From contig CANRKY010000001.1 in assembly GCA_947631355.1 (NCBI GenBank), positions 1,284 through 65,283 on the forward strand: a stretch of DNA of 64,000 nt, written 5' to 3'. Position numbers and translations under genes: made by a program. Below the pieces are notes generated by a model that worked only from the letters and a program-made list of their open reading frames with translations, was not told where the DNA came from and made no database searches. Of the stretch, positions 21,727 through 31,120 are shown piece after piece (the stretch's first letter is position 1; each line of letters begins with the position of its first letter). This DNA is from an uncultured Marvinbryantia sp. GTDB taxonomy: Bacteria > Bacillota > Clostridia > Lachnospirales > Lachnospiraceae.

Positions 21727-24252
21727 TTACGCCAGATAGAAGGTTCGTATCATCTTCAGGAAATCTTCCACCTCCTGTATGGTCTGCGCGTACTGTTCTT
21801 TTTTCGCCCCCAGTTTCTGAAAATGTTCCAGCGATTTTTCACAGTACGCTTTTACGTACTTGTACAGGGCGTTGCTTTCCCCGAAGGGGCTGGCCAGCTT
21901 GCTCCACTGCCCCGCCATCTGGTAATAATACTGCGCTTTATATTCCTCCAGGTCGATGTCCAGCCTCTCTGCGTTCGCAGACACAACGGCCATCAGCTTT
22001 TCCTCATACTTTTCCGCCAGATCCTGCCGCTTGAGGTTCACCATGCTCACGCAGGTATCCGAGAGCATCTTGATCGCAAGGGGTTCGCAGTCTCCCGGGG
22101 CGCACTCCAGCAGCGCCTCCATTCTCTTCACCGCCTTTTCGTGCATTTCCAGGCACGCTTCCGCCTGCCCGGCCAGCCTGCTGGTGCACGCCAGATTGTG
22201 CAGCACCGTGATGATGGCCGTCTCGTGCGCGTCCTTCGTTTCCGTCCCTTCGGCGCTCTCCATTGCCTCCAGAGATTTTCGCAGCCACGCCGCCGCATCC
22301 TTGTAATTTCCCTTTTTCTGGTTCGCCAGGCCATACGCATTATACAGATTCGGCATCATATTCATCGTGTCCGCAAACTCCAGCACCTTTGTGCTTTCCG
22401 CCACGGCAGCAGCCTCATCCAGCAGCTTCAGCGCCGCATCGGGTTCGCCGCCATTGATGTGCGCATTTGCCATGTTCAGATAAGAGATGATCAATTCCTT
22501 TGCCCAGGCCGCCGGATTATTCTGAAATCCCTTTTTGCGGATAGCCAGCGCTTTCTGGTAAAATTCTTTTGCCTTCCCGTAATCTCCCCACTGCTCGTAC
22601 ATATAGCCCATGTTATTGTACAATGCGTCTTTTTCTTCCTGTGACAGGTTCGTCTGTTCCGCTTTCTCGTACATTTCTATGGCCCGCCCGTTCTCTCCGA
22701 TGGAGGTGTAGACGCCGCCCAGATTCACATAGATCTCTCCGGGTATCTCCATCTGCCGTGCCTCTGCCAGCGAAATGTACGCCTCCAGACCTTTCCTTGC
22801 CCTCTGAAAATCCTGCTGATCAAAGGAAATGACTGCGAGTGACTGCAGCGCCGCAAGCCTGATATACGCCACATCCGTCTCCTCCGCCTGCTCCGTCTCC
22901 TCTGCCTGCTCCGTCATTCTCAGAACGCCCTCCAGTATCCGGCAGGCTTCTTCCGTGTCCCCGCAGGCATACAGCCATTCTGCCTTTATGATCTGGTAAA
23001 TCGCGCTGTCCTGTTTGTTCAGCGCTCTCTCCCAGCCCGTCAGCCGCTCGAGCAGCTCCTTCAGCTGCCTGGAGCGCCCCTGTCTTCTCAGGAACTCCGC
23101 ATAATCCTCCACCAGCTTCGTGTCAATATTGCGGCGCAGCACACAGGTCATTCCCTCCTCGTACAGGCTGATGATATAATCTTCCCGCTCCCGGTCCGGC
23201 ACCTCCATGCTTATCGCCTTTAATGGGATCCTAAAGTCTCGGTTTGGCTCGCCGGGTTCTTTGTCCGTCACTTTGGTACACAGTACCTTCACTTTCATCA
23301 TGAGCTCATTTAAGTACGCCTGATATTCCCGGTCCATCGCGTCAGCGACCGCGTCCAGGCGCTGCCGCTCCTGCTGCCTGTCCAGATCGTTCAGCATCAA
23401 AAGCGCCTCGTCATTCTTTCCCTCCTCAAAAAGCCGGATCGCGTCTTTTGTCCTCTGGGTGAGGCACGCCCCATCCGCCGTAATCTCCACGATCCGGGAC
23501 GCCGTTTCCAGAAGTCCCTTTTCCACGGCAGCCAGCTGCGTCTCCAATTTCGCCTTCTGATCTCCCAGCTTCAGCACCCGGTCAAATTCTTCCCCGGCGA
23601 AATCCCGCCCGGCCAGGTTTTTCCGCGCATCGGCAAGCTGTCTCTCCACCTCATCTATCTCCTTTCGAAGTTCCCGCACATCCTTGTTGTTGGCGTAAAA
23701 CGGAGTCTTCTCCATATCCAGCGGAAGCTCCGCCTGATCCGCGAACAGCCTGCCGTCCCGGATATCCAGATGGACGGTCTCTTTGCTGTCCCGCGCCAGT
23801 TCCAGCAGGATGTTCAGCTTCACCGTGTCTATGCTGCGGAACATACTGTAATAATGGCTCAGCTCATGATCCAGATAGGCCATAAACTTTTTCACGCTCT
23901 CTGACAGATCTTCTTCCCCCACCTGCTTAAAATACGTGATGATCCTGGGGCTGCCCTTTTTTTGGCAGGCGCGCCGGGCCACCTCAAATTCCTCCAGCGT
24001 GTAGTCCCCCGTGTTTTTATAAAAGAGCACGTAAAACAGCTGCGCGTCCTCTATTTTTTGATTATATTCGTCCTGCTTGCGCGTCATGGACATGGCCTTT
24101 GACTCATCCTCGCATTTGTCCAGATAAAAATACAGGCCGCGGCTCACATAAATGTCGTTCAGGGCACGTATAAAATCCCCCAGTTCCGTCCTTTCCCTTT
24201 CAAACTCATCGATGGATGAGGCCAAAAAAATATGTATCTCTTTCACTTGCAA
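21727..24252 (-). CDS. TIR/DUF4062-like N-terminal domain, coiled coil and C-terminal TPR array
   Basis: IFLASSIDEFERER...QDEYN...YTLEEFEVA; TPR-like helices (ALYNNMGYMY...YQKALAIR, YNAYGL.NQKKGNY). Confidence 0.7.
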   Translation of the reverse strand: MQVKEIHIFLASSIDEFERERTELGDFIRALNDIYVSRGLYFYLDKCEDESKAMSMTRKQDEYNQKIEDAQLFYVLFYKNTGDYTLEEFEVARRACQKKGSPRIITYFKQVGEEDLSESVKKFMAYLDHELSHYYSMFRSIDTVKLNILLELARDSKETVHLDIRDGRLFADQAELPLDMEKTPFYANNKDVRELRKEIDEVERQLADARKNLAGRDFAGEEFDRVLKLGDQKAKLETQLAAVEKGLLETASRIVEITADGACLTQRTKDAIRLFEEGKNDEALLMLNDLDRQQERQRLDAVADAMDREYQAYLNELMMKVKVLCTKVTDKEPGEPNRDFRIPLKAISMEVPDREREDYIISLYEEGMTCVLRRNIDTKLVEDYAEFLRRQGRSRQLKELLERLTGWERALNKQDSAIYQIIKAEWLYACGDTEEACRILEGVLRMTEQAEETEQAEETDVAYIRLAALQSLAVISFDQQDFQRARKGLEAYISLAEARQMEIPGEIYVNLGGVYTSIGENGRAIEMYEKAEQTNLSQEEKDALYNNMGYMYEQWGDYGKAKEFYQKALAIRKKGFQNNPAAWAKELIISYLNMANAHINGGEPDAALKLLDEAAAVAESTKVLEFADTMNMMPNLYNAYGLANQKKGNYKDAAAWLRKSLEAMESAEGTETKDAHETAIITVLHNLACTSRLAGQAEACLEMHEKAVKRMEALLECAPGDCEPLAIKMLSDTCVSMVNLKRQDLAEKYEEKLMAVVSANAERLDIDLEEYKAQYYYQMAGQWSKLASPFGESNALYKYVKAYCEKSLEHFQKLGAKKEQYAQTIQEVEDFLKMIRTFYLA

Positions 24253-24273
24253 ACACCTCCGCTTTTCTTGTCT

Positions 24274-30392: not shown

Positions 30393-31120
30393 TCTTCTCC
30401 CTTCTGGCGTATATCCGCGCCGGAAAACCCATCTGTGCCGGAAAGCCCGTCTGCACCATAAAATCCGTCTGTGCCGGAAAGCCCGTCTGCACCATAAAAT
30501 CCGTCTGCTCCGGAAAGCCCGTCTGCTCCATAAAATCCGTCTGCTCCGGAAAACCCATCTGCACCATAAAATCCGTCTGCTCCGGGAAACCCGTCCACGC
30601 CGGAAGTTTCATCGATATCGAAAATCCCCAGGGCGCGGTCGTCCTCGTCCGGCTGCGCCGCCTCTATCTTCACCGTGCGGATCACATCGCCCCGGTACCC
30701 CACGGAGCCCTCCAGGTTCCGCCTCATCTTCTTAATATCTTCCTCCCGGAAACCGGTGATCTGCAGCTTTACTTCATAGCGCACGGTCTTTTTCACGCCG
30801 GTGGGATGAACCGGGCAGTGCCGCCTGACCGTGCTTTTCCGGTGCCTCCGATAGTAGCGCCGATCTGAATTTATCAGCAGCCATATCACATTTTTCTCTC
30901 TCCCGCTTTTGAATATGCTCTTGTGATCCGGGCTTCCCTCTATCTGTCCGCTCTTTAAGATTTTTTCCGCGGCTTCCGCGGACGTATAATGAAACGCGCC
31001 GTTTCTTAAAAGCGTCTGCCGCTCGTAGCGGCTCAGCGGAAAAATGGTTTCATGTATAAATACAATATACAAGATCCGCAGCAGCAGTACTGCGGCCATT
31101 GCACATATAAAATATAGCAT
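30389..31120 (-). CDS. Membrane-anchored protein with ART-like HYT motif and C-terminal Gly-X-Y repeat tail
   Basis: N-terminal TM; FHYTSAEAAEKILKSGQI; 21 Gly-X-Y triplets; 4-bp overlap with the decarboxylase. Confidence 0.5.
   Translation of the reverse strand: MLYFICAMAAVLLLRILYIVFIHETIFPLSRYERQTLLRNGAFHYTSAEAAEKILKSGQIEGSPDHKSIFKSGREKNVIWLLINSDRRYYRRHRKSTVRRHCPVHPTGVKKTVRYEVKLQITGFREEDIKKMRRNLEGSVGYRGDVIRTVKIEAAQPDEDDRALGIFDIDETSGVDGFPGADGFYGADGFSGADGFYGADGLSGADGFYGADGLSGTDGFYGADGLSGTDGFSGADIRQKGEE
30413..30601 (-). repeat. 18-bp tandem repeat encoding (GADGFY/GADGLS)n
   Basis: About 10.5 units read directly from the sequence. Confidence 0.95.

What the first reader, a model, noticed from the sequence alone, without database searches (positions are those of the whole stretch)
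21727..31120. Unassigned six-gene modification cluster bracketed by two putative NAD-using domains
Seen: tightly spaced co-directional genes (a 4-bp overlap, other gaps of 1-34 bp): ART-like membrane protein, group II PLP decarboxylase, GNAT-like protein, B12 radical SAM, NodU/CmcH carbamoyltransferase and TIR/DUF4062-like-TPR. They lie directly downstream of the unusual tyrS. No transporter, NRPS/PKS or clear precursor peptide is present. Known: a carbamoyltransferase, a radical SAM, a PLP enzyme and an extra aaRS occur together in aaRS-inhibitor biosynthesis (albomycin; agrocin 84 likewise carries a resistant LeuRS). PLP decarboxylases, radical SAMs, acetyltransferases and carbamoyltransferases also build phage DNA base hypermodifications. 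Inference: either a new small-molecule pathway making an aromatic-amine or nucleoside-type TyrRS-directed compound, or a nucleic-acid/protein modification-based conflict system with TIR and ART effectors.
Basis: partly seen in the sequence, partly recalled or inferred. Interest (0 to 1): 0.8.

Follow-up and report, generated by a model that had tools for sequence, protein, structure and literature searches.

The report
TyrRS-linked amine-tailoring gene cassette
A rare five-gene enzyme cassette (decarboxylase, double-GNAT protein, B12 radical SAM, carbamoyltransferase, small membrane protein) entered this gut-type Firmicute in one 11.8-kb block with its own editing-domain tyrosyl-tRNA synthetase, which has replaced the native one; the product is unknown.

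Summary
The genes are real and at the stated coordinates. Three congeners have the Beta-propeller gene directly next to rpsA. The window has 11.8 kb inserted there: tyrS, five enzyme genes and the TPR gene. The genus-type tyrS has been deleted from its own locus, so the B3/4-TyrRS is the only TyrRS.

The core (243-aa membrane protein, group II PLP decarboxylase, 292-aa protein, TobZ-type carbamoyltransferase, with or without the B12 rSAM) recurs in six metagenome loci (five distinct contigs). A B3/4-tyrS is always beside or inside it. The 292-aa protein folds as a tandem GNAT. Its family has 28 representatives among 1.84 billion proteins. One is fused to a B12 rSAM and sits next to a decarboxylase and an unfused TyrRS in a 63% GC metagenome.

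The TPR protein is not part of the cassette. Its homologues are solitary genes elsewhere. The ART-like and TIR/DUF4062-like calls stay below threshold, and no known defence model matches.

The closest precedent is the tyramine operon (tyrS-tdcA-tyrP-nhaC), but without its antiporters and with tailoring enzymes added. My best reading is a tyrosine-drawing amine-tailoring pathway tied to a proofreading TyrRS. Product and chemistry are inferred, not shown.

The parts
21650..33430 (-). 11.8-kb inserted block (tyrS, five enzyme genes and the TPR gene) between the Beta-propeller gene and rpsA/S1
   Evidence: In congeners G009, G005 and G007 the Beta_propel gene is followed directly by the S1 gene, 80-255 bp apart. 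DNA homology to the relatives stops at 21365 and resumes at 33469-33507. GC is 55.4%, the same as the backbone. No flanking direct repeats were found.
33170..33434 (-). tyrS leader: promoter-like site 33352-33324 and two terminator-like hairpins (33307-33276, 33229-33204)
Evidence: I did not re-test that.
31232..33169 (-). TyrRS (Thermus/TyrZ type) fused to an N-terminal CtdA-like B3/4 aminoacyl-tRNA deacylase domain; the only TyrRS in the genome
   Evidence: Pfam B3_4 71.5 bits and tRNA-synt_1b 270.7 bits; TIGR00234 376 bits. N-terminal domain against PDB CtdA 9f7e, E 1.8e-19. Catalytic part against 6bqy and 1h3e, E 1e-109 and 1e-103, with HIGH and KMSKS intact. No other TyrRS in G000.
30389..31120 (-). 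243-aa protein: N-terminal TM helix, a ~130-aa basic conserved domain (FHYT[ST], KS.F, RH.P, YE.KL), and a Gly-X-Y tail found only in this copy
   Evidence: Homologues at 31-46% identity in all type-A loci, none with the tail. AF2 pLDDT 86. No significant fold match; ART-fold proteins DarT and Tpt1 appear only at TM 0.27-0.28.
30378..30646 (-). 18-bp tandem repeat (about 10 copies) encoding the G[AT]DG[FL][YS] tail
   Evidence: family D1. The tail is absent from the five homologues.
28671..30392 (-). Group II PLP-dependent amino-acid decarboxylase, deeply divergent
   Evidence: PF00282 64.5 bits. Weak NCBIfam hits to DABA and tyrosine decarboxylases, E 1e-13. PDB hits to GADL1, GAD and TyrDC at E 1e-14 to 1e-9. 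An FHK lysine motif is visible in the sequence. 62-67% identical in type-A loci, 44% in L228.
27758..28636 (-). 292-aa tandem-GNAT-fold protein of a very rare family
   Evidence: No Pfam or NCBIfam hit. 28 representatives among 1.84e9 proteins. AF2 pLDDT 93, pTM 0.89. Foldseek hits to VipF, glycine N-acyltransferase, MshD, PamZ and WecD, E 1e-9 to 1e-7, TM 0.5-0.57. One relative is fused to a B12 rSAM.
26177..27751 (-). Class B (B12-binding) radical SAM enzyme
   Evidence: PF02310 58 bits, PF04055 77 bits. CMNNCTFC cluster motif in the sequence. Best PDB hits OxsB and CysS. Present in L006 (55% identity) and fused to the GNAT in L228 (43%).
24274..26184 (-). TobZ/NodU-type carbamoyltransferase (Kae1-like plus YrdC-like domains); likely start at 26175
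   Evidence: PF16861 189 bits, PF02543 24 bits. PDB hits TobZ, NovN and GdmN, E 1e-39 to 1e-27. Invariant H115, H119, D142, D322 and the K.R.WWRP.AP motif in 20 homologues.
21727..24252 (-). 841-aa protein: DUF4062-like N-terminal domain, coiled coil and TPR array. Co-inserted but not part of the cassette
   Evidence: TPR families. DUF4062 at E 0.039. Absent from all other cassette loci. Homologues at 34-35% identity in 2 of 399 class genomes are solitary genes beside spoVT, with Fic or TIR neighbours.

Best explanation
The region is a horizontally acquired 11.8-kb block. In it, a TyrRS carrying a CtdA-like editing domain is functionally tied to a small enzyme cassette that draws on an amino acid, most likely tyrosine or a close aromatic analogue. 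The proposed flow is inferred, not shown. The group II PLP decarboxylase makes an amine. The tandem-GNAT protein acylates it, or holds it for the next enzyme. The B12 radical SAM enzyme performs a C-methylation or a related radical step. The TobZ-type enzyme adds a carbamoyl group through carbamoyl-AMP. The membrane-anchored 243-aa protein places the pathway, or its substrate, at the inner face of the membrane. The TyrRS plays the role proposed for tyrS in tyramine (TDC) operons: it keeps tRNA-Tyr correctly charged while the pathway drains tyrosine. The fused deacylase domain would add removal of tyrosine look-alikes from tRNA-Tyr. After acquisition the native tyrS became redundant or harmful and was lost. 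The TPR protein is a separate, probably defence-type, passenger gene. Shown: the insertion, the tyrS replacement, the conserved linkage and the fold and family assignments. Inferred: substrate, order of steps, product and the reason for the linkage.
For: Empty site in three congeners. The contig backbone belongs to the genus: GlgB is 71-86% identical to congeners. Native tyrS is deleted. Its flanks in G005 and G009 are contiguous on G000 contig C38, with 2.4-2.6 kb missing, and tblastn finds no second TyrRS. The core cassette with B3/4-tyrS recurs in L004, L006, L098, L099/L142 and L100. Gene order is shuffled but tyrS stays inside: UDPG-dehydrogenase and GH28 genes lie upstream of tyrS in L004 and L098 and downstream in L099 and L100. 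TyrRS-first sampling gave related cassettes sharing decarboxylase, NDK-like, NTP_transf_5 and 324/335-aa families in 7 of 12 contexts. These TyrRSs partly group by cassette type. An independent distant case is L228 (63% GC): decarboxylase (44% identity), GNAT-rSAM fusion and an unfused TyrRS (40%). Some copies sit next to conjugation genes (L100, L133). G441, which carries a related cassette (shared decarboxylase and carbamoyltransferase), has only the fused TyrRS. G440, with the closest TyrRS (87%), lacks the decarboxylase and keeps a second ordinary TyrRS. Precedent: an aaRS gene beside amino-acid decarboxylation operons is general, and the TDC-linked TyrS is of the same Thermus-like type (PMC3315439; PMC12607914).
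Against: The decarboxylase is only remotely like TdcA (50 bits against a cut-off of 905), so tyrosine as substrate is a guess. Five class genomes with 32-41% identical decarboxylases have no TyrRS nearby. B3/4-TyrRS occurs without any cassette (L131, L135, L139, L138, L215/G440). A Paenibacillus genome with a related decarboxylase/carbamoyltransferase cluster has ordinary TyrRSs only. The tandem GNAT lacks a conserved acyl-CoA R/Q-x-x-G-x-G/A motif. Other copies sit among glycan genes (UDPG dehydrogenase, GH28, GT2), which fits decoration of a surface polymer as well as it fits a free small molecule.
Confidence: 0.5

Rival explanations
1. Antimetabolite or aaRS-inhibitor pathway with self-immunity. 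The cassette makes a tyrosine analogue or a Tyr-AMP mimic that poisons ordinary TyrRS or is mis-incorporated in place of tyrosine. The editing-domain TyrRS is the producer's immunity. The sensitive native tyrS was lost because it was a liability.
For: tyrS is embedded in the cluster and travels with it, sometimes next to conjugation genes. The native tyrS is deleted. Two of two genomes carrying such a cassette (G000 type A; G441 the related decarboxylase/carbamoyltransferase type) have only the fused TyrRS, while cassette-free G440 keeps an ordinary one. The B3/4 domain resembles CtdA, which clears an antimetabolite from tRNA (PMC10018355 abstract).
Against: All fused TyrRSs, cassette-linked or not, share the same B3/4 motif (RTRRW.WRQ). 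Cassette-free lineages use the fused enzyme in housekeeping contexts. The window block has no exporter. The Paenibacillus relative has no special TyrRS. The genome counts are only n=3.
Confidence: 0.2
2. Decoration of a cell-envelope polymer. The enzymes add an amine, an acyl group, a methyl group and a carbamoyl group to a surface glycan, teichoic-acid-like polymer or lipid. tyrS is linked only through the decarboxylase (TDC-like logic) or through shared history.
For: Other copies include UDP-glucose/GDP-mannose dehydrogenase-like, GH28, GT2, NeuB-like, FkbM-type methyltransferase and ABC-2 exporter genes. NodU-type enzymes carbamoylate sugars. WecD, a sugar N-acetyltransferase, is among the fold hits. 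The 243-aa protein is membrane-anchored.
Against: The window block itself has no glycosyltransferase, flippase or sugar-nucleotide gene. G000 lacks the accessory genes elsewhere except for generic GT2 and GH28 hits. This reading does not explain why tyrS stays inside the shuffled cluster.
Confidence: 0.15
3. tRNA-dependent biosynthesis. The tandem-GNAT protein is a Fem/MprF-like transferase that takes tyrosine from Tyr-tRNA-Tyr and attaches it to the amine made by the decarboxylase. The TyrRS is the substrate supplier, as the SerRS paralogue VlmL is in valanimycin biosynthesis (my own knowledge).
For: The GNAT family is always found with a TyrRS: six type-A loci plus L228. It lacks the acyl-CoA binding motif. 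L-PGS, an aminoacyl-tRNA-dependent GNAT, is among the fold hits (rank 41).
Against: The top fold hits are acyl-CoA enzymes. Fem-family structures are absent from the top 50, and L-PGS matches at only TM 0.36. An editing domain is not needed for supply.
Confidence: 0.1
4. Nucleic-acid or protein modification conflict system, with an ART effector (243 aa) and a TIR-like effector (TPR protein).
For: Sub-threshold HYD1-ART and DUF4062 matches. DarT and Tpt1 appear among weak fold hits. TPR841 homologues sit near TIR and Fic genes. A TIR_2-TPR gene lies 6 kb from the L228 cassette.
Against: No PADLOC model matches apart from a generic rSAM hit. The TPR gene is never linked to the cassette elsewhere. 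The cassette partners are metabolic enzymes, ACPs, ligases and exporters. Neither NAD-domain call is significant.
Confidence: 0.03

Closest known systems
Tyramine (TDC) operon of enterococci and lactobacilli: tyrS-tdcA-tyrP-nhaC
   Same: A Thermus/TyrZ-type tyrS lies directly upstream of, and co-directional with, a group II PLP amino-acid decarboxylase. tyrS has, or had, a T-box leader. In E. durans the linked tyrS is the only tyrS (PMC3315439).
   Different: There is no tyrosine/tyramine antiporter and no NhaC. The decarboxylase is not a TdcA orthologue (50 bits against 905). Four further proteins are added: a tandem GNAT, a B12 rSAM, a carbamoyltransferase and a membrane protein. The TyrRS carries a B3/4 editing domain.
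aaRS-inhibitor gene clusters with a resistant aaRS copy (albomycin/SerRS, agrocin 84/LeuRS, indolmycin/TrpRS, mupirocin/IleRS; my own knowledge)
   Same: An aaRS gene is embedded in a biosynthetic cluster and moves with it. Carbamoyltransferase, radical SAM and PLP enzymes also occur together in the albomycin cluster.
   Different: Here the aaRS is the sole copy, not an extra one. No scaffold-forming enzymes of those pathways are present, and the window has no exporter. The TyrRS differs from ordinary ones by an editing domain rather than by visible active-site changes.
CtdA, the free-standing B3/4 canavanyl-tRNA-Arg deacylase
   Same: The N-terminal 230 aa match CtdA (E 1.8e-19). The equivalent of the essential Q173 is kept (bioRxiv 10.1101/2025.05.04.652006).
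   Different: The domain is fused to a TyrRS. The specificity-modulating C166 position is Thr. The substrate is unknown.
TobZ/NodU/CmcH O-carbamoyltransferases
   Same: Two-domain Kae1-like plus YrdC-like architecture with conserved motifs.
   Different: The N-terminal half is strongly divergent and belongs to a ~640-aa Firmicute subfamily with no characterised member. The acceptor is unknown.

Membership tests
TDC (tyramine) operon | tyrS adjacent to and co-directional with the decarboxylase gene | tested here: met
   tyrS at 31232-33169 and the decarboxylase at 28671-30392, with one small gene between them.
TDC (tyramine) operon | TdcA-type tyrosine decarboxylase (TIGR03811) | tested here: not met
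   50.3 bits against a cut-off of 905.
TDC (tyramine) operon | Tyrosine/tyramine antiporter TyrP and NhaC antiporter | tested here: not met
   No transporter among the seven ORFs of the insertion.
aaRS-inhibitor BGC with self-resistance aaRS | An additional, resistant aaRS copy beside a housekeeping one | tested here: not met
   The genome has a single TyrRS and the native gene is deleted.
aaRS-inhibitor BGC with self-resistance aaRS | The product inhibits the cognate aaRS | not testable with these tools
   Needs extracts and enzyme assays.
B3/4 (CtdA-like) aminoacyl-tRNA deacylase | B3_4 domain with the CtdA core motifs, including the Q173 equivalent | tested here: met
   PF03483 71.5 bits. 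9f7e at E 1.8e-19; VRTRRWIWRQ aligns with VTCRRWNWRQ.
B3/4 (CtdA-like) aminoacyl-tRNA deacylase | Deacylase activity | not testable with these tools
   Biochemistry needed.
NodU/CmcH/TobZ carbamoyltransferase | YrdC-like C-terminal domain and Kae1-like N-terminal domain with a His/His/Asp/Asp metal site | tested here: met
   PF16861 189 bits; PF02543 24.0 bits, exactly at the cut-off. H115, H119, D142 and D322 are invariant in 20 homologues. TobZ at E 7e-36.
Class B (cobalamin) radical SAM | B12-binding domain plus a radical SAM core with CxxxCxxC | tested here: met
   CMNNCTFC is present in the translation.
Group II PLP decarboxylase | Pyridoxal_deC domain with the PLP lysine | tested here: met
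   64.5 bits against a cut-off of 27. 'DFHK' is present in the translation.
GNAT superfamily (tandem GNAT) | Two GNAT folds | tested here: met
   Foldseek probability 1.00 to VipF, GLYAT, MshD and tandem GNATs.
GNAT superfamily (tandem GNAT) | Conserved acyl-CoA pyrophosphate-binding motif R/Q-x-x-G-x-G/A | tested here: not met
   No such motif is conserved in either half across the family alignments.
ADP-ribosyltransferase (HYD1 type), 243-aa protein | Significant match to an ART profile or fold | tested here: inconclusive
   The window protein has no Pfam hit. Homologues match at E 0.04 and 0.25 over 27 residues. DarT at TM 0.28, E 2.6. Tpt1 at TM 0.27, E 0.23.
TIR/DUF4062, TPR841 N-terminus | Match at or above the Pfam gathering score | tested here: inconclusive
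   14.6 bits against 24.7. The two homologues gave no TIR or DUF4062 hit at E 0.01. The signature IFLASSI..EF..ER is conserved.
Known anti-phage defence systems (PADLOC) | Any component matching a defence model | tested here: not met
   Only a generic rSAM hit (PDC-M51A, 1e-8) and a spurious DrmD hit.

The most novel reading that the evidence does not exclude
The cassette makes a tyrosine look-alike, or a tyramine-derived antimetabolite. The TyrRS with the fused CtdA-like deacylase is a new kind of producer immunity that works by proofreading tRNA-Tyr. Carrying the cassette then selects for loss of the ordinary, non-editing TyrRS. This would be the first natural editing TyrRS and the first biosynthetic cluster whose immunity is tRNA editing.
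Probability: 0.2. Interest if true: 0.85.

Novelty: new variant of a known kind. Interest (0 to 1): 0.66.

Why it matters
TyrRS is usually described as an aaRS that needs no editing domain. Here an editing-type domain is fused to it. The fused enzyme has displaced the native one, and it is repeatedly tied to a very rare enzyme cassette found in gut-type Clostridia metagenomes. Working out the product would reveal a new amine-type metabolite or surface decoration from gut-type anaerobes. It would also show what a proofreading TyrRS protects against. The long-standing question of why aaRS genes sit next to amino-acid decarboxylase operons becomes testable in a richer system.

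Tried and rejected
1. A k-mer homologue search for the 292-aa protein found only itself, and 40 relatives had none. Only the exhaustive profile search found the family.
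It returned mostly unrelated carbamoyltransferases, and the few full-length hits (L015-L019) share no accessory genes.
3. The repeated Gly-X-Y tail as a RiPP core was rejected because it is absent from all five homologues.
4. No tRNA genes lie in the related loci. A T-box was found only in L006.
5. No direct repeats or integrase mark the insertion ends.
6. No fused TyrRS and no 292-aa homologue occurs on sequenced plasmids.
7. None of 399 sampled class genomes has the B3/4-TyrRS fusion; only stand-alone B3/4 proteins are found.
8. Decarboxylase-first sampling found five distant homologues with unrelated neighbours, which gave no clue to the substrate.
9. Literature searches found no paper on a bacterial B3/4-TyrRS fusion or on this cassette.

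Full report
**What is there**

The minus strand carries seven tightly spaced ORFs:
- tyrS, 31232-33169
- a 243-aa protein, 30389-31120
- a 573-aa protein, 28671-30392
- a 292-aa protein, 27758-28636
- a 524-aa protein, 26177-27751
- a 636-aa protein, 24274-26184
- an 841-aa protein, 21727-24252

Pfam and NCBIfam assign these domains:
- tyrS: B3_4 plus TyrRS
- 573 aa: group II PLP decarboxylase
- 524 aa: B12-binding domain plus radical SAM
- 636 aa: NodU/TobZ carbamoyltransferase
- 841 aa: TPR repeats

The 243-aa and 292-aa proteins have no family hit. The only match for the 243-aa protein is a spurious 'collagen' hit on its repeat tail. PADLOC finds nothing relevant. A promoter-like site and two hairpins lie upstream of tyrS. 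No terminator-like site lies between tyrS and the next gene.

**The block is an insertion, and it brought the cell's only TyrRS**

The contig backbone belongs to the genus. GlgB is 71-86% identical to congeners.

In three congeners (G009, G005, G007) the Beta-propeller gene is followed directly by the S1/rpsA gene. DNA homology to them stops at 21365 and resumes at 33469-33507. About 11.8 kb, from tyrS through the TPR gene, is therefore extra in the window. None of 23 congeners has the 292-aa protein, and none has a close homologue of the carbamoyltransferase; one (G012) has only a distant one at 35% identity over part of its length.

Of the 23 congeners, 21 have a TyrRS about 30% identical and without B3/4; no TyrRS was found in the other two assemblies. 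G000 has only the fused enzyme. The flanks of the genus-type tyrS in G005 and G009 are contiguous on G000 contig C38, and the 2.4-2.6 kb that hold tyrS are gone. The acquired TyrRS has replaced the native one.

The block's GC (55.4%) equals that of the backbone. No repeats or integrase mark its ends.

**The cassette is conserved and always linked to tyrS**

The carbamoyltransferase has a close clade at 55-61% identity. Five contigs carrying it were examined: L004, L006, L098, L099 and L100. L142, found later by TyrRS-first sampling, is a near-identical copy of L099. All carry the following:

| Component | Identity to the window |
|---|---|
| B3/4-TyrRS | 66-71% |
| 243-aa homologue (no tail) | 31-46% |
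| PLP decarboxylase | 62-67% |
| 292-aa homologue | 30-32% |
| Carbamoyltransferase | 56-61% |

The rSAM is present only in L006. The other four have a 717-730-aa citrate-lyase-ligase-like protein instead. The TPR protein is in none of them.

Gene order is shuffled, but tyrS stays inside the cluster. The UDPG-dehydrogenase-like and GH28 genes lie upstream of tyrS in L004 and L098 and downstream of it in L099 and L100.

Accessory genes vary. They include NDK-like proteins, NTP_transf_5, ACP, AMP-ligase, a BtrH-like protein, ABC exporters and GT2. L100 adjoins T4SS genes.

**Sampling from the TyrRS side**

The fusion is common in Lachnospiraceae and Clostridia metagenomes: more than 120 clusters at 60-87% identity. 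It is absent from 399 sampled class genomes. Twelve contexts chosen by TyrRS alone were examined:
- Two have carbamoyltransferase cassettes: L142 (the window's type A) and L134 (a related type sharing the decarboxylase and carbamoyltransferase).
- Four have a second type (type B): NeuB-like, transketolase, decarboxylase at 31-33% identity, a 324-aa protein and methyltransferases.
- One is partial (L133, on a conjugative element).
- Five have none. Three of these are near-identical sequences of one lineage.

In a TyrRS tree the type-B-linked enzymes group together. The window is sister to L215 (87%), which has no cassette. L215's genome, G440, lacks the decarboxylase and keeps a second ordinary TyrRS. 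G441, which carries the related L134 cassette, has only the fused one. A Paenibacillus genome with a related decarboxylase/carbamoyltransferase cluster has ordinary TyrRSs only.

**The unknown proteins**

The 292-aa family has 28 representatives among 1.84 billion proteins. Its model is confident (pLDDT 93). It is a tandem GNAT, with hits to VipF, glycine N-acyltransferase, MshD, PamZ and WecD. No acyl-CoA motif is conserved.

One relative, P0260, is fused to a B12 rSAM. In a 63% GC metagenome it sits after a GT2 gene and a decarboxylase (44% identical) and beside an unfused TyrRS (40%). This is an independent, distant repeat of the TyrRS-decarboxylase-GNAT-rSAM association.

The 243-aa protein has a TM helix and a basic domain with invariant HYT, KS.F, RH.P and YE.KL motifs. 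Its model (pLDDT 86) has no significant fold match. ART-fold proteins appear only weakly, and the Pfam HYD1-ART hits are sub-threshold. The Gly-X-Y tail, encoded by an 18-bp repeat, is unique to this copy.

**The TPR protein**

Its N-terminal domain carries a DUF4062-like signature that is conserved in two homologues. Those homologues are solitary genes beside spoVT, with Fic or TIR neighbours. It is a co-inserted passenger, plausibly defence-related, and not a cassette member.

**The TyrRS**

The catalytic part is an ordinary Thermus/TyrZ-type enzyme with HIGH and KMSKS intact. The N-terminal domain matches CtdA, the canavanyl-tRNA deacylase (E 1.8e-19). The equivalent of the essential Q173 is kept, and the C166 position is Thr.

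**Comparison with what is known**

The closest precedent is the tyramine operon tyrS-tdcA-tyrP-nhaC. There, an aaRS gene next to the decarboxylase of the same amino acid is described as a general feature. The linked TyrS is Thermus-like and can be the only tyrS. Its suggested role is to secure Tyr-tRNA while tyrosine is decarboxylated (PMC3315439; PMC12607914).

The present locus shares the tyrS-decarboxylase pair. It lacks both antiporters, has a non-orthologous decarboxylase, adds four other proteins and has an editing domain on the TyrRS. It also resembles aaRS-inhibitor clusters that carry a resistant aaRS, but here the aaRS is the only copy.

**Verdict**

The six-gene boundary and the two 'NAD domain' calls are not supported.

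The functional tie between the cassette and a TyrRS is well supported, at about 0.8. The chemistry (an aromatic amino acid converted to an amine, then acylated or held, methylated and carbamoylated) and the reason for the tie are inferred.

Four readings remain open: supply under tyrosine drain, proofreading immunity, Tyr-tRNA as substrate, and glycan decoration. The defence reading is unlikely.

Noticed in passing
G000 contig C38, 1537-1721 (locus L221): The genus-type tyrS and about 1.2 kb next to it are cleanly deleted between two conserved flanking genes. This genome therefore depends entirely on the acquired B3/4-TyrRS.
   Followed up: yes
window 30378-30646: An 18-bp tandem repeat (about 10 copies) gives the 243-aa protein a G[AT]DG[FL][YS] tail that no homologue has. 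It may be a recent expansion.
   Followed up: partly
window 1-18000: GC drops to 34-39%, against 55% for the rest of the window and 53.8% for the genome. This is a separate foreign island beside the insertion.
   Followed up: no
window 21373-21562: The S1/rpsA gene has an N-terminal acidic Ala/Glu-rich extension encoded by 24/51-bp repeats. It does not align with the congeners' S1 genes.
   Followed up: no
L228 1322-2140 and 4114-5952: In the distant 63% GC locus, a TIR_2-TPR protein lies 6 kb upstream of the decarboxylase/GNAT-rSAM/TyrRS group. A second radical SAM gene with two tiny ORFs (43 and 35 aa) also lies nearby. Recurrence of a TIR/TPR gene near the cassette may be coincidence.
   Followed up: no
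L225 9247-12096; L226 9108-11525: TPR841 homologues sit immediately upstream of spoVT in two unrelated genomes, with Fic or TIR-domain neighbours. This looks like a small variable defence-like spot.
   Followed up: partly
L133 249-5981; L100 15332-19165: B3/4-tyrS with cassette-family genes lies next to relaxase, T4SS coupling-protein and PcfJ genes. An essential-type aaRS is carried as cargo of conjugative elements.
   Followed up: partly
L132, L136, L140, L141: A second cassette type is linked to B3/4-tyrS: NeuB-like, SDR, split transketolase, decarboxylase, a 324-aa unknown protein, a methyltransferase-HAD fusion and an FkbM-type methyltransferase. It is uncharacterised.
   Followed up: partly
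L004, L006, L099, L133, L134: Divergent 240-340-aa NDK-like proteins and PF14907 nucleotidyltransferases recur in nearly all tyrS-linked cassettes. They are missing from the window's minimal version.
   Followed up: no
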